The notes under the pieces are model-generated. The model had not been told where the DNA came from and did no database searches. It saw only the letters and a program-made list of their open reading frames with translations. The position numbers were made by a program, and so were the translations under genes. Positions 10,782-21,625 of a DNA stretch of 64,000 nt are shown here, one piece after another. Each line of letters opens with the position of its first letter. The stretch's first letter is position 1. Source of the DNA: Candidatus Marinacidobacterium sp. Lineage in GTDB: Bacteria; Acidobacteriota; Vicinamibacteria; Marinacidobacterales; Marinacidobacteraceae. The DNA is taken from assembly GCA_965204755.1 (NCBI GenBank), contig OZ242011.1:736001-800000 (forward strand). The letters are read 5' to 3'.

Positions 10782-13700
10782 TTACTCGAAGAGTTTCTTC
10801 GGCCGGGAGGCTGCCTGGGAGCGGAGTCGGAACTCGTGCTTCGGTTCGGCGGCCAGGAGGTCGGCGGACGGGTCCCGCGCCGGCTGGCCTAGGGCCGACC
10901 ATCGGTGGTGTTCGGGCTGGGTGATGAGGTTGCGGGTGAGGAGGCGGTCGAGGACGCGTAGGCAGCCGGGCGAGTCGAGGTGGCCGGCCGAGCGGAGGAG
11001 TTGGAGGAAGGTGGGCCATTGGGTTCGTGGAGGGACGGCGCGGGAGCAGAGTTCGGCGACCAGGGCCGCTACGCCCTCATCGCCGAGGAGGCGGCGGGTG
11101 TATTCGTCTTCGAGGCGGGAGGCCAGCGCTCGGGCCAGGGAGTCGAGATCGCCCCCCTCGTCGTTCACCGGGGCGGTCTTGGCGATGCGGGCGGCGAGGC
11201 GCTCGCCGTAGGTCGCGGCGCCGAGGAGGTTGCGGGCGTGGAGGTGGGTCTCCCGTTCGCGCTCCTCCGGGGTCTGGACGAGTTGCCAGTCGTAGAAGCG
11301 GGGGCCGAGACGGCTGGCGACCGGTTGGTGTTCCTTCGCGCGGTCGTCGTGGCCGAGGCCATAGTCGGCAAGGCGCAGGGTCTCGGGGGCCATCCAGCCT
11401 TCGCCATGATTCTGGGCGAGGAACGCCTCAATCCCACTCTTTCGCTCGCCACCGGCCTCTTCAATCTTCTTCAAGAGATCGCGGAAGGCGACGACTGTCA
11501 GCACGGTGTGGCGCAGTTCGGGGTCCTTGTCCTTGTCCACGCGCCAAAAACCCTTGGCATCCAGTTCCCCAGCCAGGAACGAACCTTTGATGTTCGCCTG
11601 CGGAAGATCGCAGCGTTGCAATATTCGATGCACATCCTTCAGATCGAGACGAAACGCTACGAACATCACTGCCTCGATTACACAGCGAAGACGAACGCGT
11701 TCGTGTTCGGTCAGCGCTGGGAGCGTGTCGTTGAGTATTAGGGAGGAAGAGCAGAGTGACGAGTGACAAAGGTGTCCCAGTAGGGGTTGGACGCGGCCCA
11801 CTTCCCAAGTGTCCGGTTGTGGAAGGGGAGTCTCCGCCAGCACGAACCAGCTGGCGTCGAGCCCCGAGAGCCGAACACGCAGGCAATAGTCGTAGGCGAA
11901 CGAGTTCAGCACACCACTCAGCGTCGAGCACCATGCCGAGTCGAGGTTCAAGACGCTGACCTTGTGGCCACACGGCACCTGACCCAGAGGCGTCGCGATC
12001 ATTGCTCGTTCGTTTGTCGAAGAAGTGATCGCCATCGCCGCCACCTTCAGATCGGACGATTTCGACTCAGAACGGGTCGTTGACGCCATCAAGTACTGCG
12101 GTTCGATCTGCTTGTCTCGCCACGGTATCTTCCGCCACACTGCCCGGCGCCCCCGGCCGCTGACCCATCCCTTCTTGCTGATGTCGAACTGGCCGATCAT
12201 TCGACCCTCATAGAGCGGTAGAGCGATGGCCTCGATTCCAGCCTCGTGAATCCATTCTCCCCCACCCCGCGAAAGGACGACTCCCGCCGGAAGACGTTCC
12301 CGTTCAATGCCGCTGGCGGGCAATCGCCCTCGCAGATCGTCGATCGGACGCCAGTTGCCGAGGATCCACCGGCTGTATTCGTCGGGCCGGTAGCCCTCTT
12401 TCTCCCACTCGGGACGAGGCGGGAACAGTTCGGAGTCGCCGGTCATGTCGAATTCTCGTTCGTACCGGATTTGCCAGCCGGCCCGGCTTTCGCTGCCCAG
12501 AAGGACGGTGTGCCCATAGATCTTCCCTAGAATCTCCAAGTCTTGCCGTGACTGGATTTCAAGTATGACCCGGCTTTCGGGACTGAAGCGTCGCACTTGG
12601 TCTCCGTCGTACGGAATCGCGTGTTCTTCGGCTCGCTCCCAATCCGCGAGGTCATGGCGCATGAATGCCGTCCGGATAGTCTTGGTAACGCCGGACTTCT
12701 CTACGACGATCGGGCTGAATTTTTGGCGCTCGTCGATGGGGAAGATCCGTCGGCGGTTTTCGATGCTGAACAGCCACTCCCAACGGCAGCGTCCGAGGAA
12801 GTGGTCGCGGAGGTCGCGGGTGCCGTGATCTGAGTAGAGACCAGAAGGAACGAGCAAGCCCAGACGCCCGTGCGGCTGCAGTAAGCCCAGCGACGACTCC
12901 AAGAAGAGTTTGTAGAGATTCAGGTCGGCCGAGCCTTGACGGCGGAAGGGGTGTTCCTCGTCGCAGTAGGCGAGGGCCGTGCGCCTCAGTTCACGCCAAC
13001 GACTGTGGAGTTCATTACCCAATTTGCCGGAGGCGATAGAAAAGCGCTGTGACGACTTCTCGGCGACCTCGGGGTCGCCGAAGGGGCGGGCGGCATGGGA
13101 AGCGAAGTTCGATCTGGCGCGGAAATCGGACAGATAGTCGAGCCACCGGTCTTCGATGTCGTCGTCCTCGAAGTAGCGCTTCTGATTCTTCAGGGCCTCC
13201 TGCTTGCCGTAAGAGCGGTAGAGGGGATCGTGGTCCGAGAAAAACTCCATCGAAATCGGCTTAGCGACATCCCACGGAGGATTGCCGAGGACGGCGGAGA
13301 AACCCGCACCATCCTCGCGGAAGACATCGGGGAACTCCAACTCCCAGTGGAAGAAGCGCATTTGTTCGGCGATGCGCTGCGCCGCTCTTCGGGTCTTCGG
13401 CGTAGGCTTGGCCAAGTCCGCCGGAAGCGGAGCAGAGTCCAAGTCGTTGGCCGGCCAGAACCAGCAGGCGCACCATCGGTCCATCGCTTCCTTGAGCGAT
13501 TGCCAAGCAGAGGAGCCGAGGAACTCACGCCGATAGCGGTCAGCCAGCACCGCAGGGTCACGCACTGGCAACGAGTGGAGGAGTTGCAGCGTTGTTTGGG
13601 CCTCGTCATGGGCGTCCGCGATCTTCGCCAAGTGGTCCTCTTGGTCGAACAGGGTAGGGGCACTCAGGAACTCGCGCAGGTGCGGCTTGAGCCGTTTCAC

Positions 13701-16157
13701 CACGAAGTCCTTGATCGACCTGGCGCGAGCACCTTTCTCGAAGTGCACCCAGTTTCCGTGATTCTCGTCGCCGCCCTTCCGGTTTTTCCAAGCCATCACC
13801 GGGTAGTGGCGGAACTGGTCGAACCAGGCGCCGATGAGGGCGTTGCCGCATTTGATCTTGTGGTCGAGGAAGCCGAAGGGGAGTTCCCGGTCCATGGTCT
13901 CGATCCAGAGGGACAGGCGGCAGAGTTCCACGGCCAGGGGATCGAGGTCCACCGCGTAGATGCAGCGCTCGACGACATAGCGGCGGAGGACGGCCTTCAG
14001 GCGGGGCTCGAAGTCGTCGGCGTCCGGGGGCGCGGGAATGAGTTCCTCCGTCGCGCGGTCGCTGGCGCCGTCGGACAGGCCGAGGAGGCGGACGAGGGAC
14101 GCTTCGCCCCGGGGTTCGATCCGTCCGTGGAAGCGGAGGGAGTCGTAGAGCGCGTCCGTCAGGAAACGCAGCGCCGCCAGCGGGAAGGTGCCGGAGCCGC
14201 AGGCGGGATCGCAGACGGTGATCCGCAGGATGTCTTCGGGTTTCTTCGGTGACCACTTCGGACCGGGGGCGAAGCGGTCGGGTTCGCCGTCCTCGCCCGT
14301 CGGGGGATCGAAGGCGAGGGGGCGCAGCGTGCGCTGGACGGTCGGGATCGCGAGGCCGGGGCGGGTGTAGAAACTGCCGGAACCCTTGCGGGTGCCGCCC
14401 CAGCGCACGAGATACCACTCGCCGGGGGGCACGAGGCGGGCGACCAGGCGGTCGGCGGCAGCGGCGATCTCCCGCTCGCGGGTCAGTCGGTGTTCAGAGG
14501 TCAATCGTCCGCGCGGCTTCTTGACCAACCTGGCCGCTTCGACGGCGCGGAGCGCCCAGCGGCGGGCGCGTTCGCGGTATTCCGCGCCCTCGTCCGCCGG
14601 CGATTCGTCGTCCGGGGTTTCGTCGGCGTCTCCGGCGGCTTCCGGTTCGTCCGCCTTCGCGGCGTCTTCGGCGGTCGCTTCTTCCGGCTCGGCGTCATCG
14701 GCGGCGGAAGACGGCTTCTTCAACTTCTCGAAGAGCGCCTTCAGCGCCTTGTCCTCCATCTCTTCGAGGCGGGACAGCGGGAGCGCCGGGCGGTCGCCGA
14801 CCGGGAGGAAGACCACCGGGTCGTCCTCGGCGGCAGTCTTCAACTCGTAGTCGAGCAGTCCTTCGTAGAGGACGCCGATGTATTCCGACGAAAGGTCGGA
14901 GAAGTCCACCGGCGCGGCGACGACGGCGCTCGTTCGCCCCTTCCGCACGCGGATGCGCGTCCGGGTGAGGAGCCGCAGCATCGTATTCACCTGCTGGTCG
15001 GACGCCGTCTCGCTGTCGAAGCACGCGGTTTCGAAGACGGAGAGCGCCCGCGATACCCCCTCCGCGGAGTCGGGGGCGCCGGGGGCGAAGAGTTCTCCGC
15101 CGTATCGGGTGACCGGGAGTTCGGAGTGCGAGCAGCCTTCGAACACCAGGCGGAAGAGGGCCAGCAGGCGCGGCCAGGCGGCGGTGCGGTCGGAGAGCGG
15201 GCGGCCGGCCGCCTCGTGGCGCTGCAAGCGGTCGCGCAACGCGGTGAGGCCGTAGGCGGCGTCGTAGAGCGCGTTGTCGCGGGGGAGGAGGTCGCGGGAC
15301 TCGGCGTAGAGGACGACGACCATGCGCATCGCCACGCGGCAGGCGGCGCGGTAGATGTCCGCCGGGTCGGTTTCGCCGGCGATCCGCTTGAGCGGCTCGC
15401 CGTGGCTGCGGATCAGGATCTCCACCGCTTCGCGGACGCGTTCGCCGAGTTCTTCCGAGACAGCCGCCTGCCCCTTGCGGGTATCGCGGATCGCGCGGAG
15501 GAGCGGCGCGTCCTTTCCTTCCGTTTCGGGCGTCCAGGGCGGCGGGGACAGCAGGGTTCGCAGGGTTTCGACCTGGGGCGCGAGGCCGCCTTCCTCGAAG
15601 AAGGACTCGACGGTCCACTCGCACCACGCCTCGTAGTCCAGCCCGGCGAAGACCAAGCGCCATTCGCGCCCGTTGGTCAGGAGGGCCAGGTGCTCGCCGC
15701 CGTTCCGCAGCCATTCGACGACGCGGCTCATCTCGCGCCGGCCCTTGCCGACGCCGAGGCGCTGGCCCCGGTCGAAGAACACCGGCAGGCGGGCGCCGTT
15801 GCGGCCGGTCCACCGGGAACGCGGCTTCGCGAGTTCGCCGGTGAGGGCGCGGCGGCCTTCCTCCGCGGGAACCTCGTTGCCGCGCGTCCAGCCGCCCGAA
15901 CGGGCGAAACCGCAGACTTCGTCCAGCGTGTAGTTGACGAAGCGGCTGGCGGCGGCGGGGTCCTTCGAGTCGCCGAGCGCGTCGGCGAGCCGGCGGAACC
16001 GGGACTCGACGAGCCCGGTCAACGGCTCCTTCGGGACGAACTTCGCGAGTTCCGCCGCGCGGGCGGCGTCGAACAGCAGGCCGCCGTGGCGCAGGCGGTC
16101 CCAGCCGGGGAGTTGGAACTCGTCCGCCGCGCGGGAAGAGGGGCGCGGCCGCTTCAT
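10782..16157 (-). CDS. Large N6-adenine DNA methyltransferase (DrmMI/Eco57I type IIG-like), ~1791 aa
   Basis: True start ATG 16157 overlaps the SNF2 stop (ATGA); GSFYT, DPACGSGTF (SAM binding), GNPPW (catalytic), FFHWELEFPDVF, DLNLYKLF, PLYEGRMI. The first ~920 aa of the 2714-aa ORF are an off-frame overlap with the SNF2 gene. Confidence 0.92.
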   Translation of the reverse strand: MKRPRPSSRAADEFQLPGWDRLRHGGLLFDAARAAELAKFVPKEPLTGLVESRFRRLADALGDSKDPAAASRFVNYTLDEVCGFARSGGWTRGNEVPAEEGRRALTGELAKPRSRWTGRNGARLPVFFDRGQRLGVGKGRREMSRVVEWLRNGGEHLALLTNGREWRLVFAGLDYEAWCEWTVESFFEEGGLAPQVETLRTLLSPPPWTPETEGKDAPLLRAIRDTRKGQAAVSEELGERVREAVEILIRSHGEPLKRIAGETDPADIYRAACRVAMRMVVVLYAESRDLLPRDNALYDAAYGLTALRDRLQRHEAAGRPLSDRTAAWPRLLALFRLVFEGCSHSELPVTRYGGELFAPGAPDSAEGVSRALSVFETACFDSETASDQQVNTMLRLLTRTRIRVRKGRTSAVVAAPVDFSDLSSEYIGVLYEGLLDYELKTAAEDDPVVFLPVGDRPALPLSRLEEMEDKALKALFEKLKKPSSAADDAEPEEATAEDAAKADEPEAAGDADETPDDESPADEGAEYRERARRWALRAVEAARLVKKPRGRLTSEHRLTREREIAAAADRLVARLVPPGEWYLVRWGGTRKGSGSFYTRPGLAIPTVQRTLRPLAFDPPTGEDGEPDRFAPGPKWSPKKPEDILRITVCDPACGSGTFPLAALRFLTDALYDSLRFHGRIEPRGEASLVRLLGLSDGASDRATEELIPAPPDADDFEPRLKAVLRRYVVERCIYAVDLDPLAVELCRLSLWIETMDRELPFGFLDHKIKCGNALIGAWFDQFRHYPVMAWKNRKGGDENHGNWVHFEKGARARSIKDFVVKRLKPHLREFLSAPTLFDQEDHLAKIADAHDEAQTTLQLLHSLPVRDPAVLADRYRREFLGSSAWQSLKEAMDRWCACWFWPANDLDSAPLPADLAKPTPKTRRAAQRIAEQMRFFHWELEFPDVFREDGAGFSAVLGNPPWDVAKPISMEFFSDHDPLYRSYGKQEALKNQKRYFEDDDIEDRWLDYLSDFRARSNFASHAARPFGDPEVAEKSSQRFSIASGKLGNELHSRWRELRRTALAYCDEEHPFRRQGSADLNLYKLFLESSLGLLQPHGRLGLLVPSGLYSDHGTRDLRDHFLGRCRWEWLFSIENRRRIFPIDERQKFSPIVVEKSGVTKTIRTAFMRHDLADWERAEEHAIPYDGDQVRRFSPESRVILEIQSRQDLEILGKIYGHTVLLGSESRAGWQIRYEREFDMTGDSELFPPRPEWEKEGYRPDEYSRWILGNWRPIDDLRGRLPASGIERERLPAGVVLSRGGGEWIHEAGIEAIALPLYEGRMIGQFDISKKGWVSGRGRRAVWRKIPWRDKQIEPQYLMASTTRSESKSSDLKVAAMAITSSTNERAMIATPLGQVPCGHKVSVLNLDSAWCSTLSGVLNSFAYDYCLRVRLSGLDASWFVLAETPLPQPDTWEVGRVQPLLGHLCHSSLCSSSLILNDTLPALTEHERVRLRCVIEAVMFVAFRLDLKDVHRILQRCDLPQANIKGSFLAGELDAKGFWRVDKDKDPELRHTVLTVVAFRDLLKKIEEAGGERKSGIEAFLAQNHGEGWMAPETLRLADYGLGHDDRAKEHQPVASRLGPRFYDWQLVQTPEERERETHLHARNLLGAATYGERLAARIAKTAPVNDEGGDLDSLARALASRLEDEYTRRLLGDEGVAALVAELCSRAVPPRTQWPTFLQLLRSAGHLDSPGCLRVLDRLLTRNLITQPEHHRWSALGQPARDPSADLLAAEPKHEFRLRSQAASRPKKLFE

Positions 16158-19100
16158 CCGGGTTTCTCCGGGAAGCGGATTTCGACGGTTACCGGGAACA
16201 CCTGGACTTCGCCGGCGAGCGAGTAGCGGGCGGGCACCAGACGGTTCAGGATGCGGTCGCGTTCTTCGGCGAGGTTCCGGCGAAGCGCCTCGTGGCCTTC
16301 GAGCGTGCGCCGGTGTTCTTCTTCGAGGAGGTCCCGCGAACGGGAGATGCGGGCGGCGCGCTCCTCGGCGTCGAACAACATGCGGCGCCGGCTCTCTTCC
16401 TTCAGGGCTTCGAGGTCGCGCGCGATCCGGTCCAGTTTGTTCCCGGTGATGAGTTCGGACACTTCGGCCTGGCGGCGGTCGTATTCCTCGGTCTCGCGCC
16501 GCTTCGCCGTTGCGCCGCGCCGCTCCAGCGCCGCCCGGATGTCCCGGCCCAACCGGTAGCGGTGGGTCGAGAGACGCTTCTTGAGCGCCGGGACGACCTC
16601 GTCCAGCAGTTCGCGGGCGTCCTCGTCTTCCGGGTCGTGGACGGACTCGGCGGCGGCGATACCCCGGGTGGTTTCGTCCGGCAGCGCCTCGCCCAGTTCG
16701 CCGCCGCGCACCGGGAACGCGAGCGTGCGCACCCAGCGGTGGAACGGCTCGCGCAGTTCGTTCACGGCGAACTCCTCGACGCTGAACAGCGCGACCGCCT
16801 CCGCGCCGCGCGCCGCTCCGGGCAGGGTCTCCGGAGTAAACCCGCCGCGGCGCGCCGTCCAGCGGGAAACCGTCACCCCGGTCCCGGTCCCGGTCCTCGA
16901 ATACCGCCGCCGCGCCAGCACGGCGAGCGAGCGGCGGAGCAGCGGGTGCGCCAGGTGCACGAGTTGCATCTCCGGGCGGGGCCGGAAGACGGTGAGCGAA
17001 CCGCAGGCTTCGAGGAACGGTCGCTCGTCGAAGGCGAGGCGCGGCATCGGGCCGAGGCCGGCGCCGTTCGCCGAGAGGCGCACTTCGCTGTCGAAGACTT
17101 CGCGCCAGCCGGGGAGGTCGGGGTTCGCCACGGTGAACGCGCCCGGCTGGTTCGGGGCGGGAGCGAGGGGGCGGGCGCCGCCGGCGGTCCCGAGCGCGGC
17201 GGCGAGGGTATGGCGGAGCGCGTCGGGGTGGAGGTCGAGCCGCGCCGCGAAGTCGGCGACGCCGGTGGTCGCGCTTTCGTCGGCGTCGGACTGGGCGTCG
17301 TACCGGGCGCTGTCCCGCGCGGTTTCGAGGCTGCGTTCGAACTCCGGTTCCACGAGTTTCGGTTGTTCGCCGCGAATGAGCCGGCGATGCACGGCGCGGT
17401 CGAACACCTCGTTGACCGAGCCCAGGTCGTCGCGCATCTCGTTGGCCTTCTCCACCAGCCGGGCGAGGAACGCGAGGTCCGGGTCGCTCCCGCTCAGGAA
17501 GTGGTGGATCGAGACATCGCGGCCTTGCCCGTAGCGGTCGAGCCGGCCGTTCCGCTGCTCGAGGCGCGAGGGATTCCAGGGGCAGTCGTAGTGGAGGAGG
17601 CGGCGGGCGGTGCGCTGCAGGTTCAGCCCTTCGGAAGCGGCGTCGGTGGCGACCAGGATCCGCACGGGAGCGCCGGGGTCGTTGAACGCGCCCTTGACCG
17701 CCTCGCGGTCGTCTTCGCCCATACCTTCCGCGCCGCCGGCGCCGAACAGGGTGAGGACGCGCTCTTCGGGGTATCGCTCGCGCAGCCGGCGGGTGAGGTA
17801 GTCGAGCGTGGTCTTGTATTCCGTGAAGACGATGAGGCGTTCGTCGTCGCGGAAGGCGCCGCCGCCGCGGAGGCGGTCTTCGATGAGGCGAGTGAGCGCG
17901 TCGAGGCGGGTGTCGGCGGCGGGGTCCTGTTCGACCGTGGGCGCGCCGGCGAGGTCGAAGCCGAGGGATTCGAGAGCGGTGCGGAGGCGCGCGATCTGCG
18001 GGCGGAGGTCGGCTTCGTAGTTCCCGAGCCAAGAACCGGTGACTTCGGCGGCGACGGCTTCGCGGCGTTCGGTCTCGCGGTCGTCGCCGGTGTCCCGGTC
18101 GAGCGAGCGCTTTTCCGCCATGAGTTGCGCGTCCTCGGCGGGCTGGTCGGCGAGGCCGGCGAGGACGCGCCGCCAGGACTCGGCGAAGGCGGTCGGGCAG
18201 GAGAGGAGGCGCTTGTTCAGGACTTCGACCGCGAAGTTGCCGGCGCGGCGGCGGCCGTCCTCGGTCGCGCGGACGAGTTGGTGGAGGCGCGCGCGGAAGT
18301 CGGAGAAGGCGGCGGAGAGTTCCGCTTCGAGGGGATCGTCGCGGAGGCGGAGCGCTTCGGGAGGGAGGCGGCGGCAGAAGCGGCGCGGTTCCCGGGTGGC
18401 GCCTTCGCCGGGATCGCCGTTCGAGGACGGGTCGAGGTGGCGCTTGAGCCGGCGGATCACCACTTCGCCGGTGCGGCGGCGGAGGGCCGGGGTCATGCGC
18501 GAAGTGCGGTGGAAGCGCACCGGGTCGAGCATCTCCAGCAGGCCGGTGAACGAGCGGGTATGCCCGTTGTGCGGCGTCGCCGAGAGGAAGAGGCGGTGCT
18601 CGAAGTGGGGCGTGATCTCGCGCAGCGTCCGGCAGAGTTCGCTGTCTTCGCCGACCGGGGCCGGCATCAGGTTGTGGCATTCGTCCACGATGAGCAGGTC
18701 CCAGGGCAGCCGGGGCGACTGCGGCGCGCCTTCGGGCCGGCGGTGGGCGGCGCGGAACTGCTCGCGGATCTCCGGCTGGCGGAGGTAGTGGTAGGAAGCG
18801 ACGATCCGGTCGTGCGAGCGCCAGGGGTTCGCGTCCATTCCCAGCGAGCGGCGCAGGTGTTCCGTCTCGCGCCGGTCCACGATCTCGAAACGGAGCGCGA
18901 ACTTCTCGCGCATCTCTTCCTTCCACTGGCGGCGCAGCGAGGCCGGCGTGAGGACGAGGACGCGGCGGATGCGCCGGCGGAGCAGCAACTCGGCGAGGAT
19001 CAGCCCGGCCTCGACGGTCTTGCCGAGCCCCACATCGTCGGCGATGAGCAGGTTCACGCGGGGCATCCGCAGCGCCTTCACCAGCGGGACGAGTTGGTAG

Positions 19101-19471
19101 GGCTCGATCCGGACGCCGCCGTGGAAGGGGCTGCTCGGCGGCGGGTCTTCGGCGTCGCTTTCGTCGAGGTAGGGGGTGAGCGCCGTCCAGCGCGCGGCGC
19201 GGAGCAGCGCGTCGAAGTCGGCGGGCGGCATCGGCGGCGCGGCGCCGTTCGGGACATCGTTCGGCTCGTGGAGCCGCGCGCCGGGCTCGATCTCCCAGAC
19301 CAGCCGCTCGCTCGGCGGGGAGTGGTGGTCGAGGTAGTCCAGGTGGACGAGGCGGAGGCGCTTGTCGCGGCCGACGGTTTCGTCCACGCCCGCGATGACC
19401 GCCCGCCGGTTGCGGACGGTGGCGACCATCCCGACGCGGGGGACGGACGGGGGGTCGGCGGCGGGGCTCAC
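16154..19471 (-). CDS. drmD: DrmD-like SNF2-family helicase/translocase
   Basis: [78 protein letters not shown]; start inferred at GTG 19471 (alternative ATG 19429). Confidence 0.88.
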   Translation of the reverse strand: [1105 protein letters not shown]

Positions 19472-19722
19472 CGGGACAGGGGGCGGACCCGGGCGCGGGG
19501 CCGGCTCATGGAGTCGTCGGGGTCGGGAAGGTCGGGGGAGCGGGGCCGGTGCGGCGGCGAGTCCGCCCCGCGGCGCGGGCTGCCCCGGGCGGCGCGGCGG
19601 CGCCGCGCTCCGGGGGCGGAAGACGGTACGCCATCCGCGCCGAAATCCCGACCCCCGCCGCCGCGGGCCGGGCGCTCGGTCCGGCAGCCGCCGGACACCA
19701 CGCGGATCCCAAACTACAACCC

Positions 19723-20014
19723 GTCCACGAAAGCGGGGCAACCTCACGCCCGGATCGAGCCCCTTCACCGGCCCGATGTCGCGGATCGCGACCCCCCTTC
19801 ACCCATCGACCGGCGGATCGCCCCCCCTACCGGACTCACGACGCGGATCGAGCCCCCTCGCACCCGCAGAACACCCGGATCGACCCCCTGCTCCGGCTCG
19901 ATATCGCGCACCGACCCCCCTTCACCCGCCAGCGCGGATCGACCCCGTGCCCGGCTCACGGCGCGGATCGAGCCCCTTCGCGCCCGCAGGAATCGCCGAC
20001 GAACGCGCGGATCG
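19723..20014. repeat. ~31-bp-period array with core (G/C)CGGATCG followed by a C-rich tract
   Basis: CGGATCG at 19751, 19782, 19814, 19844, 19876, 19935, 19964, 20008; degenerate units at 19723 and 19907; two more at 20264 and 20295. Confidence 0.85.
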
Positions 20015-20029
20015 GGTATGGCGAGCCAA

Positions 20030-20125
20030 GAATTGTGTATAGCTGCCACGAATTGTGTATAGGTCAGCCGAATTGTGTATAGCTCGGCCCGAATTGTGTA
20101 TAGCTGACGCGAATTGTGTATAGGT
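20030..20125. repeat. Array A: 5 x GAATTGTGTATAG(C/G)T at 20-21-bp period
   Basis: Invariant 13-mer at 20030, 20050, 20070, 20091, 20111 with short variable GC-rich linkers. Confidence 0.97.
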
Positions 20126-20316
20126 GAGCGCCCCGGGGCCGTTCGCAGCGCGGATACGCGGCGGAACGGCGTGCGCGGGACTGCCTCGAAGACCGGTTCA
20201 GGCGCTCCGGAGAGCGTCCGGGAGGCTCTATGACGCCGAATTCGCATGTCCGAACGCGCCGGGCGGATCGAGCCCCGAATCGCCCACGAACGCCCGGATC
20301 GGGTATGGCCGACCGG

Positions 20317-20433
20317 GAATTGTGTATAGGTGACGCGAATTGTGTATAGCTCCGCCGGAATTGTGTATAGCTCCGGTGAATTGTGTATAGCTCCGCCGGA
20401 ATTGTGTATAGCTCCGGTGAATTGTGTATAGCT
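20317..20433. repeat. Array B: 6 x GAATTGTGTATAG(C/G)T at 20-21-bp period
   Basis: Invariant 13-mer at 20317, 20337, 20358, 20378, 20399, 20419; preceded by the same ~33-bp leader as array A. Confidence 0.97.
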
Positions 20434-20488
20434 GACCACGGGCCGACCCGGACGCGTGGACGCGCTCCTTTCCCTGCCGCGGCCGCGT

Positions 20489-21625
20489 TCAACCGCGTTT
20501 CGCCGGTTCTTCCTCCGGGCGCAGGACCTCGACGATTCGCGGATTCTGCAAATGCCGGCGCGAACCGATGCGCTGCAGGTTTCCCCGAGCGATCACGGCG
20601 ACGCTGTCGCGCCGCGCCTCGACGGCCCGGCGGTAGTCGCGTTCGTCGAAGACCGCGGTGACCGTTCGCCGCCGACCGGGCGCGTCCGGTTCGCGAACCC
20701 GCAGGGTCACTTCGCCCGCGTGTTCGGTTTCCCCGTTGCCGGGGCGCGAGACGAAACCCACGAAGGACGCCGCCTCCTGCGGTTCCCCCTCCCGGCAGAA
20801 CCGCGCCGCCTCCCGAACCGCGGGGGAGTCGGCGGCGGCGAATCGCGTGGAACTCGCCGGCTCGTCGGCCGGCGAAGTGAGCGCCCAGGAAACGCCGATG
20901 TCCACCGCGTCGAACGCTTCCGTCAGGTCGGCGATCGCTTCGCAGAGGTTCGCGCTGACGCCCTCTCCGACGAGATCCGCGAACGCGCCGGGCTCACCCG
21001 CCGCGGTCGCTTCCACCGCTCGGCGCGCCGCACGCAGGGACTCGACCAGGCGCTTCGGAACCGTTCGGGAGAAGGGCTCCTTTTCCGGTCGATCCGGACC
21101 GGGGAGTCGGCCCGGAGACACCGTCGGAGTCAGGAGCGTCGCGACGAAACCGCCGGGCTCGGTATGGCCCAGGCGGACTCGCCGGAGGTACTTCGCGGCC
21201 TCCGGGTTCTCGCCGGCGCGATGGAGCGCCTGCGGCCGCTCCGCCGAGCAGGCGGCCGCGAACAGGAGGTTCCGCGCGCCGGCGAGGAGCGCGACGCGGT
21301 CCTCGACGGTCGCCTCCGGCCCGTTGCCCTCCGCGCCCACCCGGATCACATCCCGGTCCGCCGCGGTCAGGTCGTGGTGCACCCGCAACTGCGAAACCTC
21401 CCCGGTCTCCGAGAAGATCTCCAGCAGCCGGGTGACGGCGCTCGCGTAGTCACCGAGATCGGCCGTCCTCGGGATGAGGATCTCCGATCGGTCCTCGGCG
21501 CCATAGATATCGGCGTGGTCGCCGAACTCCCCGGTCTTCGCCCAACCATGCGCTCTCGCGTAGGCCGAAAGCGCGGCGGGCGTTACCCGCCGCACGGCGT
21601 CCCAGTCGCGGACGAAGACCCTCAC
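20489..21625 (-). CDS. Hypothetical protein (378 aa)
   Basis: Host-like codon usage, globular composition (LSAYARAHGW, DYASAV, DRDVIRV, GVSANLCEAI); no function assignable. Confidence 0.75.
   Translation of the reverse strand: MRVFVRDWDAVRRVTPAALSAYARAHGWAKTGEFGDHADIYGAEDRSEILIPRTADLGDYASAVTRLLEIFSETGEVSQLRVHHDLTAADRDVIRVGAEGNGPEATVEDRVALLAGARNLLFAAACSAERPQALHRAGENPEAAKYLRRVRLGHTEPGGFVATLLTPTVSPGRLPGPDRPEKEPFSRTVPKRLVESLRAARRAVEATAAGEPGAFADLVGEGVSANLCEAIADLTEAFDAVDIGVSWALTSPADEPASSTRFAAADSPAVREAARFCREGEPQEAASFVGFVSRPGNGETEHAGEVTLRVREPDAPGRRRTVTAVFDERDYRRAVEARRDSVAVIARGNLQRIGSRRHLQNPRIVEVLRPEEEPAKRG

What the first reader, a model, noticed from the sequence alone, without database searches (positions are those of the whole stretch)
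19990..20433. Twin leader-plus-array modules of an invariant AT-rich 13-mer at two-helical-turn spacing
Seen: 11 exact copies of GAATTGTGTATAG in arrays of 5 and 6, period 20-21 bp, with variable linkers. Each array is preceded by a near-identical 33-bp leader GAATCGCC(G/C)ACGAACGC(G/C)CGGATCGGGTATGGC (19990 and 20277). An invariant AT-rich core with drifting linkers in very GC-rich DNA suggests selection on the core. The reverse strand reads CTATACACA, one mismatch from the DnaA box TTATNCACA. The linkers are too short for CRISPR spacers and no rep, dnaA or cas gene is in the window. Inference: an iteron- or centromere-like loading platform, a DnaA-titrating locus, or a repeat RNA (AGCUAUACACAAUUC units, co-directional with the operon) belonging to the DISARM-like system. 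This is my best candidate here for an undescribed element.
Basis: partly seen in the sequence, partly recalled or inferred. Interest (0 to 1): 0.82.

Follow-up and report, generated by a model that had tools for sequence, protein, structure and literature searches.

The report
Dispersed repeat arrays with own reader protein
The repeat arrays are real, but they are one of nine identical modules spread around this sponge-associated acidobacterium's chromosome and most likely serve as binding platforms for a dedicated, previously undescribed DNA-binding protein rather than as a part of the neighbouring defence operon.

Summary
In detail: 11 exact GAATTGTGTATAG copies in arrays of 5 and 6, where shuffles give 0.09.

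The module is not private to the DISARM-like operon. The 3.98-Mb genome holds 100 exact and 4 one-mismatch copies, all in nine intergenic twin-array modules. The sister species has none, and lacks a module at 5 of 5 syntenic sites. Cores are invariant while linkers and inter-array spacers are essentially random.

Two sister families share this build. CCTGTGTCTTT forms five twin modules, one of them orthologous in the sister species. CGGATCGAGCCCC is the third.

Each family has one copy beside a paralogous gene of about 355-450 aa: helical N-domain, basic Pro/Ala linker, C-terminal winged helix. The paralog beside a GAATTGTGTATAG module is, like that 13-mer, found only in this genome. Homologs occur in 18 of 24 same-family genomes and 0 of 16 others. 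Of 25 loci, 15 carry paralog-specific arrays just upstream; 12.7% is expected.

Best reading: cognate protein-binding arrays, iteron- or centromere-like. DnaA, RNA and DISARM-component readings are not supported. Binding is inferred, not shown.

The parts
19708..19748 (+). Remnant of an IS3-family terminal inverted repeat ('motA': ...CCGTCCACGAAAGCGGGGCAACCTCAC), with its outer end facing the arrays.
   Evidence: Seven copies with up to 3 mismatches in the genome. Five lie next to GAATTGTGTATAG modules and one next to a CCTGTGTCTTT module. In relative G039 the same motif ends a complete IS3-type transposase gene.
19749..19989 (+). Array of the third repeat family (F3): core CGGATCGAGCCCC, about 30-bp period, 7 units within 2 mismatches plus 1 degenerate unit.
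   Evidence: TRF row 19749-19989. Core positions 19751, 19782, 19814, 19844, 19876, 19935, 19964. The genome holds 251 copies with up to 1 mismatch.
19990..20022 (+). 'Leader' 1, a 33-bp unit containing an F3-like CGGATCGGG variant.
   Evidence: Read. It agrees at 31 of 33 positions with 20277-20309.
20030..20126 (+). Array A: 5 units of GAATTGTGTATAG(C/G)T(G/C), period 20-21 bp.
20127..20316 (+). Inter-array spacer (193 bp between the cores, GC 0.72). It holds one F3 core at 20264-20276 and 'leader' 2 at 20277-20309. Its sequence is not conserved among the nine modules; only its length is roughly kept.
   Evidence: Spacer lengths are 140-222 bp, with 7 of 9 between 177 and 193. Mean pairwise identity is 0.61 against 0.59 for shuffled spacers.
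20317..20434 (+). Array B: 6 units of GAATTGTGTATAG(C/G)T(G/C), period 20-21 bp.

Best explanation
The element is one of nine chromosomal copies of a 'twin-array' module. Its 13-16-bp core is the recognition site of a dedicated DNA-binding protein encoded elsewhere in the genome: P_F1, at L036:6517-7638, G000 about 2,046,014-2,047,135, 1.29 Mb from the window. P_F1 belongs to an unannotated protein family found only in this family-level group within the class Vicinamibacteria (Acidobacteriota; placement from the names shown). The proteins have an N-terminal domain of long helices, a disordered Pro/Ala/Lys-rich basic linker, and a C-terminal winged helix-turn-helix (wHTH).

Proposed mechanism (inferred): the wHTH reads one asymmetric core. 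Cores spaced at 2, 3 or 4 helical turns put the bound proteins on one face of the DNA. The helical N-domains and basic linkers then tie neighbouring proteins, and the two arrays about 190 bp apart, into a higher-order nucleoprotein complex. At the 'master' copy the arrays end about 95 bp upstream of the P_F1 gene, so the protein would regulate its own promoter, as ParR does on parC. The eight gene-less copies, including the one in the window, would be extra loading sites. They could act locally as roadblock, silencer or activator on whatever lies beside them, here a drmD-like helicase gene that starts about 100 bp from the left edge of the module.

Shown: the dispersal, the core invariance against random linkers, the lineage match between motif and paralog, and the recurrent gene-array adjacency across genomes with paralog-specific cores.

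Inferred: actual binding, oligomerisation and the physiological role.
For: (1) Selection on the core.
- 100 exact and 4 one-mismatch copies, none with 2-3 mismatches inside the modules. A reversed-motif control gives 0 exact or one-mismatch copies.
- 66 of 82 linkers are distinct, and beyond the first 3 nt they carry little information.
- Inter-array spacers are no more alike than shuffled ones, 0.61 against 0.59.

(2) Spacing.
- Spacings cluster at 19-24, 29-32 and 40/43 bp, with nothing at 25-28 or 33-39.
- Collapsed to one value per array, n=43, R=0.72, Rayleigh p about 2e-10.

(3) Sister family F2 (CCTGTGTCTTT).
- It has the same architecture at five loci.
- One module is orthologous between G000 and G001. 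There the cores are kept while linkers, unit number and spacer have diverged.

(4) Three paralogs, three array families, in G000.
- P_F2 starts about 125 bp from the orthologous F2 module.
- P_F1 starts about 95 bp from a GAATTGTGTATAG module.
- The third paralog ends 80 bp from a 2.1-kb array of 69 CGGATCGA(G/C)CCCC units.

(5) Lineage match.
- G001 has 0 copies of the 13-mer.
- It has 2 paralogs against 3 in G000.
- At the syntenic site it lacks exactly the stretch holding the arrays and P_F1: L036 5817-7698 is replaced by 236 bp.

(6) Wider pattern.
- The wHTH query hits 18 of 24 same-family genomes and 0 of 16 genomes of two sister families.
- 15 of 25 assessable loci have a tandem array 700-1500 bp on the 5' side of the wHTH domain, and 3 more have one at the 3' side.
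- 12.7% of random 800-bp windows in G000 touch such an array, binomial P=3e-8. Related genomes are not independent, so this overstates.

(7) Cores differ by paralog, and the wHTH sequences group by core type across genomes: TAGTGACAGGAGCT, CTGGGGCGATA-type, GACCATGG, and the 32-bp G023/G011 unit.

(8) The C-terminal domain is a DNA-binding fold. Pfam Fic-like_C matches 17 of 24 members and HTH_20 matches 12 of 24. The AlphaFold2 model has pLDDT above 90 for 267-352, with 3 helices plus a wing.
Against: - No binding was shown. All support is comparative and associative.
- 7 of 25 homolog loci show no array by TRF at my thresholds, and 3 have it on the 3' side.
- Adjacency could mean only that each protein regulates its own gene, with the gene-less arrays spreading for other reasons.
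- Orthologous groups inflate the counts. About six core types are independent.
- F2 arrays include 13- and 18-bp spacings that do not fit helical phasing.
- The N-domain model is of low confidence (pLDDT 55-73), and Foldseek found nothing at E below 0.3.
- How gene-less modules spread is unexplained. No target-site duplication or inverted ends could be made out.
Confidence: 0.55

Rival explanations
1. It is a selfish or neutral interspersed intergenic repeat, like STAR, BIME, NIME or MIRU-VNTR elements, with no dedicated reader protein. Arrays expand and contract by slippage. Their position beside the wHTH genes is hitch-hiking or shared use of insertion hot spots.
For: Nine dispersed intergenic loci with unrelated neighbours. 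Gaps of 40 and 23 bases in contigs laid across array B hint at unit-number differences among strains from other samples. Modules are not found at 5 of 5 syntenic sites in the sister species. Remnants of IS3-type and Tn7/Tn402-like ends lie beside the modules. STAR elements look similar and have no known function (PMC3532100: abstract and Background read).
Against: Neutral decay cannot keep about 1350 core positions with only 4 changes while linkers and spacers are randomised. It also cannot keep F2 cores in an orthologous module across species of about 80% DNA identity. It does not explain why the motif and one paralog are both confined to G000, nor the 15-of-25 gene-array adjacency with paralog-specific cores.
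Confidence: 0.17
2. The gene plus its arrays is a mobile cassette. The arrays are the sites through which the protein, or a partner enzyme, mobilises the element. The eight gene-less modules are non-autonomous, MITE-like derivatives.
For: There is one gene-bearing copy and 8 gene-less copies for F1, and 1 plus 4 for F2. The 1.88-kb arrays-plus-gene block is not found at the syntenic G001 site. The family has 1-8 copies per genome. In G008 there is one gene-linked array and one remote array of the same core.
Against: The protein has no recognisable catalytic domain in Pfam, NCBIfam or PADLOC, and its N-domain is predicted to be all-helical. Both arrays lie on the same side of the gene and in direct orientation, not flanking it. 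No terminal inverted repeats or target-site duplications were seen. Spacers of different copies are unrelated, unlike a recent burst.
Confidence: 0.13
3. The arrays are DnaA-box clusters (datA- or DBC-like) that titrate the replication initiator.
For: The reverse strand CTATACACA fits TTATNCACA at 8 of 9 positions. The F1 arrays are the densest clusters of boxes within 2 mismatches in the genome, though this follows from how they were found. This DnaA differs from E. coli at 3 of the 6 base-contact residues (P423K, D433H, T435S, residues per PMC2533591 and PMC7561715, passages read). No canonical box cluster exists anywhere in the genome. B. subtilis has eight stable DnaA-binding intergenic regions (PMC2533591, abstract and passages).
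Against: G001's DnaA shows the same residues at 5 of the 6 contact positions (RHHST motif; position 423 is K in G000 and G in G001), yet G001 has 0 copies of the 13-mer. No copy lies near dnaA, in its promoter or in the dnaA-dnaN spacer. All 13 positions are invariant, which is more than a 9-mer box needs. The paralog match is explained better by the wHTH protein.
Confidence: 0.04
4. The arrays act as RNA: a repeat-bearing transcript that sponges an RNA-binding protein or is processed into short units.
For: In the window and at 357893 both neighbouring genes are read from the - strand, so read-through RNA would carry CUAUACACAAUUC repeats.
Against: No sigma-70-like promoter or intrinsic terminator pattern in 18800-20800. 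Fold z-scores are -0.28 on the + strand and -1.39 on the - strand. No Rfam match reached a family's gathering score at 10 loci. Orientation relative to flanking genes is mixed: co-directional, convergent and divergent. Spacings quantised by about 10.3 bp argue for duplex DNA.
Confidence: 0.05
5. The module is a dedicated cis-regulatory component of the DISARM-like operon.
For: 2 of 9 F1 modules lie directly upstream of DrmD-type SNF2 helicase genes (window 16154-19600, E=1.7e-195; L037, E=1e-237).
Against: The other 7 of 9 modules flank housekeeping or other genes, such as hisF, aroA, amidase and amidohydrolase. At least four other large DrmD-like genes (3617954, 2140813, 3408048, 1992774) are more than 50 kb from any module.
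Confidence: 0.04

Closest known systems
Plasmid and phage centromeres read by small DNA-binding adaptors: parC/ParR of R1 and pSK41, tubC/TubR (recalled from memory, not read here)
   Same: Direct repeats of a short asymmetric core in one or two clusters, placed just upstream of the gene for the protein that binds them. Binding is cooperative on one face of the DNA, and the protein regulates its own gene.
   Different: The arrays here are chromosomal and present at 9 (F1) or 5 (F2) dispersed loci. No motor gene (ParM, TubZ or ParA) lies in the 1.88-kb arrays-plus-gene block. The protein is larger, with a helical N-domain and a basic disordered linker. One genome carries several paralogs with different cores.
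Iteron arrays and Rep initiators of theta-replicating plasmids (recalled)
   Same: Arrays of 17-22-bp direct repeats at about two helical turns next to the gene of a winged-helix protein. Extra iteron clusters elsewhere titrate or 'handcuff' the protein.
   Different: F1 modules have no AT-rich unwinding element (spacer GC 0.69-0.86). The protein has one wHTH and no Rep-family match: RP-C matched weakly in only 1 of 24 members. The copies lie at many places on one chromosome.
STAR elements of Staphylococcus aureus (PMC3532100; abstract and Background read)
   Same: Short (14-bp) direct repeats of composition opposite to the genome's, interspersed with variable sequence, in many intergenic loci. 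Loci differ between species, repeat number varies, and the function is unknown.
   Different: STAR spacers are at least 40 bp of 'recurring' sequence, whereas these linkers are 7-30 bp and unrelated. No cognate protein is known for STAR. Here a lineage-matched candidate reader exists.
BIMEs/REP of enterobacteria and the IS3-family element IS1397 that targets them (recalled)
   Same: Mosaic extragenic elements built from several motif types. Some have an IHF site; the F2 modules carry an AATCAAGGAGTTA-like motif. IS3-family ends are found at them.
   Different: REP units are palindromic and act partly as RNA hairpins. The units here are asymmetric direct repeats without hairpin potential.
DnaA-box clusters / datA (PMC2533591, abstract and passages read)
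   Same: Dispersed intergenic clusters of a short box that load many copies of one protein.
   Different: See the DnaA rival: the 13-mer is not found in the sister species or at dnaA.

Membership tests
Partition centromere with adaptor (parC/ParR, tubC/TubR type) | Cluster(s) of direct repeats immediately upstream of the gene for the centromere-binding protein | tested here: met
   At the master copy, array B ends about 95 bp before the P_F1 start. The same layout holds at 15 of 25 homolog loci.
Partition centromere with adaptor (parC/ParR, tubC/TubR type) | Adjacent motor gene (ParM, TubZ or ParA) in the same operon | tested here: not met
   The G000-specific block holds only the arrays and one gene. 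Pfam finds no ATPase or GTPase domain in the flanking ORFs of that locus.
Partition centromere with adaptor (parC/ParR, tubC/TubR type) | Protein shown to bind the repeats | not testable with these tools
   No protein-DNA modelling or experiment was available.
Iteron origin of replication | Direct repeats of about 17-22 bp at about two helical turns | tested here: met
   16-nt unit. Spacings of 20 bp (40 times), 21 (12) and 22 (6) out of 82.
Iteron origin of replication | AT-rich unwinding element beside the iterons | tested here: not met
   F1 spacers have GC 0.69-0.86. Only F2 modules have an AT-rich stretch of about 45 bp.
Iteron origin of replication | Rep-family initiator gene | tested here: inconclusive
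   The adjacent protein has no Rep-family match; RP-C matched weakly in only 1 of 24 wHTH domains. The genome was not searched for Rep_3 or TrfA.
DnaA-box cluster (datA/DBC-like) | Boxes fit the organism's DnaA box and also occur at oriC or the dnaA promoter | tested here: not met
   No 13-mer and no box cluster near dnaA. oriC itself was not located.
DnaA-box cluster (datA/DBC-like) | Conserved among relatives that share the DnaA recognition residues | tested here: not met
   G001's DnaA shares 5 of the 6 contact residues (position 423 differs), but G001 has 0 copies.
CRISPR array | Repeats of about 23-55 bp with unique spacers of similar length, and cas genes | tested here: not met
   The repeat is 13-16 bp and the linkers 7-30 bp. 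cas genes were not searched for.
Interspersed intergenic direct-repeat element (STAR/BIME-like class) | Short repeats with variable intervening sequence at many intergenic loci | tested here: met
   Nine intergenic loci.
Interspersed intergenic direct-repeat element (STAR/BIME-like class) | Unit number varies among strains | tested here: inconclusive
   Contig gaps of 40 and 23 bases across array B in other samples fit unit-number differences, but short-read contigs break at the arrays and the nine copies cross-map.
DISARM defence system component | Constant association with drmD/drmMI operons | tested here: not met
   2 of 9 modules are next to DrmD-like genes, and at least 4 DrmD-like genes have no module. 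P_F1 and P_F2 have no PADLOC match.
MITE / non-autonomous transposon | Terminal inverted repeats and target-site duplication | tested here: inconclusive
   None could be made out at three filled-versus-empty site comparisons, but the flanks are too diverged. Both arrays are in direct orientation.

The most novel reading that the evidence does not exclude
This acidobacterial family has a system not described before. It consists of several paralogous 'array-reader' proteins (helical N-domain, histone-H1-like basic linker, specific winged helix). Each nucleates on its own family of repeat arrays scattered around the chromosome. This would give the cell paralog-specific addresses at which compacted, looped or tethered chromatin-like domains form. 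New paralog-plus-array pairs arise and spread within single species, as GAATTGTGTATAG and P_F1 did here. Some copies would control neighbouring defence islands.
Probability: 0.3. Interest if true: 0.8.

Novelty: new variant of a known kind. Interest (0 to 1): 0.62.

Why it matters
Interspersed repeat arrays such as STAR, BIME and NIME have been known for decades, mostly without a known reader protein or function. Here the comparative pattern offers a concrete, testable pairing between repeat families and paralogs of one unannotated protein family: three array families and three paralogs in one genome, with one motif-paralog pair confined to a single species. If binding is confirmed, it would give a natural set of orthogonal protein and DNA-array pairs. 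It would also give a model for how DNA-binding specificity and its genomic sites co-evolve, and a new kind of nucleoid-organising or gene-silencing system in an uncultured symbiont lineage. It also corrects the local reading: the arrays are not a private part of the DISARM-like operon.

Tried and rejected
- **Public scans for the tandem 13-mer.** Genome contigs gave 1 unrelated hit, a low-GC Chloroflexales stretch rich in TGTGGATAA boxes. Viral contigs gave 0. Metagenome contigs gave 5 unrelated low-GC hits.
- **Literature.** A full-text search for the 13-mer, its complement and 10-mers found only unrelated primer matches, judged from the listing and abstract starts.
- **RNA evidence.** No RNA holder is listed among 17 sequencing runs, so expression could not be examined. 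Short-read contigs break at the arrays.
- **Rfam.** Nothing reached a family's gathering score at 10 loci. The two matches listed had E 0.59 and 0.097, far below their gathering scores.
- **Promoter and terminator scan.** 0 and 0.
- **Replication polarity.** Orientation of the modules does not follow the replichores (dnaA at 1.82 Mb). In G001 all F2 matches are on the + strand.
- **oriC.** It could not be located.
- **Tn7/Mu lead.** The TGTCGAG...GACACCNAC end remnants beside 3 F1 modules and 1 F2 module look like incidental neighbours. The one Mu-type transposase lies at 3.96 Mb, and TniQ was not found, though the TniQ control also found nothing in any control genome.
- **Recurrent neighbours.** Apart from the wHTH paralogs and the two DrmD genes, no gene family recurs among module flanks.
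- **Protein look-ups.** The ESM Atlas gave no usable hit. Foldseek against the PDB gave nothing at E below 0.3.
- **Unpublished genome.** The motA count in relatives (17 of 41 genomes) includes the unpublished genome G033.
Full report
**1. The observation**

Reading 19700-20800 and a pattern search confirm 11 exact GAATTGTGTATAG copies on the + strand.
- Five are at 20030-20123 and six at 20317-20431, spaced 20-21 bp.
- Shuffles of the window give 0.09 matches on average, and 0 of 100 shuffles reach 11.
- The two 33-bp 'leaders' (19990, 20277) agree at 31 of 33 positions.
- Tandem Repeats Finder sees both arrays, and also a 241-bp repeat region directly upstream at 19749-19989.

**2. The module is not private to this locus**

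- The whole genome (G000, one contig of 3,975,858 bp, completeness 89%) holds 100 exact copies and 4 with one mismatch. None has 2-3 mismatches inside the modules. A reversed-motif control finds 0 exact or one-mismatch copies.
- All copies lie in nine loci: 357893+, 756030+ (the window), 1207949+, 1659955-, 2045498+, 2895447-, 2970772-, 3119130-, 3494174+.
- Each locus is a twin array of 4-9 units per array. The last unit of one array and the first of the next start 153-235 bp apart.
- All nine are intergenic, and their neighbours are unrelated. They include an amidohydrolase, 3-hydroxyacyl-CoA dehydrogenase, amidase, SpoU methylase, HtrA-like protease, hisF, aroA and a DAHP synthase. They also include two DUF4143 ATPases, two Uma2 nucleases and two SNF2 helicases.
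- Gene orientation around the modules is co-directional, convergent or divergent.

**3. What is conserved and what is not**

- Over the 100 copies the 13 positions are invariant. The next three are C/G (75/25), T (91) and G/C (70/29). Beyond that the linkers carry little information.
- Of 82 linkers, 66 are distinct.
- Inter-array spacers measure 140-222 bp, with 7 of 9 between 177 and 193. They are no more alike than shuffled sequences: mean identity 0.61 against 0.59.
- Spacings are 20 (40 times), 21 (12), 22 (6), 30 (7) and 31 (7), with single values at 15, 16, 23, 24, 29, 32, 40 and 43 and two at 19. Nothing falls at 25-28 or 33-39.
- Collapsed to one value per array (n=43), the phase concentration at 10.3-10.5 bp per turn is R=0.72. 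This is driven mostly by the 20-21 class. The independent information is that the other classes sit at about 3 and 4 turns.
- This pattern calls for purifying selection on the core in place, on duplex DNA.

**4. Lineage**

- None of 40 relatives has an exact copy. Nine of them have one or two single hits with one mismatch, which is close to the level of the reversed-motif control. The same-genus genome G001, a single contig of about 4.5 Mb, has none at all.
- At 5 of 5 syntenic sites tested, G001 has a short intergenic stretch (about 40-290 bp) and no module.
- Contigs from runs of three other studies cover parts of the window's module with few differences. Gaps of 40 and 23 bases across array B hint at different unit numbers. 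These contigs are fragmented and the nine copies cross-map, so this is weak.
- Names shown place the organism in Acidobacteriota, class Vicinamibacteria.
- The runs that hold the stretch include sponge and marine metagenomes.

**5. Sister families**

- Next to an isolated copy of a flanking motif I found a second twin-array family, F2, with core CCTGTGTCTTT. It forms five modules: 245538-, 587968+, 1046737-, 2291686-, 3356797-.
- F2 has the same build as F1. In addition it carries an AT-rich stretch of about 45 bp after the first array, holding an AATCAAGGAGTTA-like, IHF-consensus-like motif. The IHF consensus is recalled from memory.
- F2 tandem pairs occur in G001 at four loci and in 0 of 39 other relatives.
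- The module at G000:1046737 is orthologous to the one at G001:1952590. The flanking genes align and the cores are kept, while unit number, linkers and spacer have diverged.
- A third family, F3 (CGGATCGAGCCCC, 251 copies with up to 1 mismatch), forms long arrays elsewhere and is interspersed in F1 and F2 modules. In the window it forms the 19749-19989 array, and one unit lies in the spacer.

**6. A candidate reader**

- An all-against-all comparison of ORFs flanking the 14 modules gave one recurrent family besides the two helicases. These are paralogous genes whose 5' ends face a module.
  - P_F1 (L036:6517-7638) starts about 95 bp after array B of the 2045498 module.
  - P_F2 (L099:2767-3831) starts about 125 bp from the orthologous F2 module.
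- A third paralog (L125:3469-4833) ends 80 bp from a 2.1-kb array of 69 F3 cores.
- So G000 has three paralogs and three array families, each paralog beside an array of a different family.
- G001 has two paralogs: the P_F2 ortholog at 71% identity, and one more. At the 2045498 site it lacks exactly the 1.88-kb block that holds the arrays and P_F1.
- The F1 motif and the F1-linked paralog are thus confined to the same genome.

**7. The protein family**

- The last 90 residues hit 18 of 24 genomes of the same family-level group and 0 of 16 in two sister groups, with 1-8 copies per genome.
- The word-indexed database returned 17 homologs with no Pfam domain and no name. NCBIfam and PADLOC give nothing meaningful.
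- The profile search of 1.84 billion representatives found 1556 proteins at E up to 0.001. Most match only the C-terminal domain. Roughly 30 of the best 150 span the whole length.
- Pfam on 24 C-terminal domains gives Fic-like_C in 17 and HTH_20 in 12.
- The AlphaFold2 model has these parts:
  - long helices at 37-164 (pLDDT 55-73);
  - a disordered Pro/Ala/Lys-rich stretch at 166-262;
  - a confident winged helix at 267-352, pLDDT above 90.
- Foldseek finds only weak likeness to helical hairpins and to the C-terminal domain of a Fic protein, with E above 0.3.

**8. Gene-array linkage across genomes**

- Of 26 homolog loci fetched, one sits at a contig end. Of the other 25:
  - 15 have a tandem array 700-1500 bp on the 5' side of the wHTH domain, that is, just upstream of the gene;
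  - 3 have one just 3' of the gene;
  - 7 show none at my TRF thresholds.
- In G000, 12.7% of random 800-bp windows touch such an array. Related genomes are not independent, so the nominal P of 3e-8 overstates.
- The arrays have the same logic as F1: a conserved core of about 11-16 bp, variable linkers, and periods of 18-22 or 32-33 bp. The cores differ by paralog.
- In the alignment of the wHTH domains the sequences group by core type across genomes.
- In G008 one core occurs at the gene (8 units), at a remote array (11 units) and once alone. In G018 it occurs only at the gene.

**9. How it most likely works**

- Shown: the points in sections 2-8.
- Inferred: each paralog's wHTH binds its own core, and phased sites load many proteins on one face of the DNA. 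The helical N-domain and basic linker then join them, and the two arrays, into a larger complex.
- Also inferred: the gene-linked copy autoregulates, and gene-less copies are further loading sites with local effects.
- In the window the module lies upstream of a DrmD-type helicase gene (16154-19600 on the - strand, PADLOC DrmD E=1.7e-195), which is followed by a DrmMI/Type IIG methyltransferase.
- A second F1 module sits upstream of another DrmD gene. At least four more large DrmD-like genes have none.
- So a regulatory effect on this operon is possible, but the module is not a DISARM part.

**10. Rivals**

- *Neutral or selfish repeat.* It explains the dispersal but not the core invariance or the paralog match.
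- *Mobile cassette.* It fits the one-master-many-copies pattern. But there is no catalytic domain, no inverted ends and no flanking arrangement of the arrays around the gene.
- *DnaA.* This DnaA has unusual contact residues (P423K, D433H, T435S, residue list from PMC2533591 and PMC7561715, passages read), and no canonical box cluster exists. Yet the sister species shares 5 of the 6 contact residues and has 0 copies of the 13-mer, and no copy lies near dnaA.
- *RNA.* No promoter, terminator, fold or family signal, and no RNA data to test it.

**11. Comparison and novelty**

- The nearest functional analogues are centromere or iteron arrays read by a winged-helix or ribbon-helix-helix protein encoded next to them. 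The nearest descriptive analogue is the STAR/BIME class of interspersed intergenic repeats (PMC3532100, abstract and Background read).
- The element fails membership of the partition class (no motor gene) and of the iteron-origin class (no unwinding element, no Rep family).
- I file it as a new variant of a known kind.
- The motif is not in the searched literature. The protein family carries no name in the databases searched.

**12. Verdict**

- The 'loading platform' reading is supported in kind.
- The DISARM, DnaA and RNA readings are not supported.
- A specific, testable reader protein is proposed.
- Binding itself remains to be shown.

Noticed in passing
window 10782-19768 (- strand): The 2714-aa ORF listed at 10782-18926 is probably not one gene. 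The stretch 16154-19600 in another frame encodes a complete DrmD-type SNF2 helicase (PADLOC E=1.7e-195), and 10785-16151 encodes a DrmMI/Type IIG methyltransferase. The two frames overlap between 16154 and 18926.
   Followed up: partly
L022 (G000:C1:1822184-1825681) and L104 (G001): In both species DnaA domain IV differs from E. coli at 3 of the 6 base-contact residues: P423 to K or G, D433H, T435S. The genome has one TTATCCACA and no cluster of canonical boxes, also not around dnaA. The origin was not located.
   Followed up: partly
L125 1263-3388 (G000:C1 about 2,587,760-2,589,890); G000:C1:339974-341756; L126 5412-7001 (G001): There are very long arrays of the CGGATCGA(G/C)CCCC family: 69 units at 28-32 bp, a 15-bp unit repeated 116 times, and in G001 a 19-bp unit repeated 82 times.
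   Followed up: partly
G000:C1:358315, 2970680, 3119676 and about 245,200; also 585880 and 1575814: Remnants resembling Tn7/Tn402-type ends (TGTCGAG followed by two GACACCNAC... repeats 25 bp apart) lie beside 3 F1 modules and 1 F2 module. Together with the IS3-type end remnants, this suggests the arrays are preferred landing sites for mobile elements.
   Followed up: partly
G000:C1:2558518-2558610: Seven copies of GTTGACAAC at about 15-bp spacing lie just upstream of a gene for an ATPase-like protein. This is another small operator-like array.
   Followed up: no
loc1207949 flank (L034 5083-5309) and G000:C1:316700-317500: A dispersed element of about 225 bp with inverted ends (GCCCGTGGAGA...TCTCCACGGGC-like) lies near four modules. 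At 316.7-317.5 kb it stands in tandem copies.
   Followed up: no
whole genome G000: Palindrome-like 11-mers around GGTAACCGTTACC occur 120-250 times, and C12 runs are counted 408 times. Their nature (REP-like element, repeated coding domain, assembly artefact) was not examined.
   Followed up: no
L050 899-1682 (G001:C1 about 1,747,157-1,747,940): G001 carries a 259-bp unit in three tandem copies. It repeats the 3' end of the methyltransferase gene at the site where G000 has an F1 module.
   Followed up: no
L021 4680-5000 (Chloroflexales MAG contig): The only public genome hit for two tandem copies of the 13-mer lies in a low-GC stretch packed with TGTGGATAA-type boxes, apparently a replication origin. 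The match looks coincidental, but it shows the 13-mer can sit among DnaA boxes.
   Followed up: no
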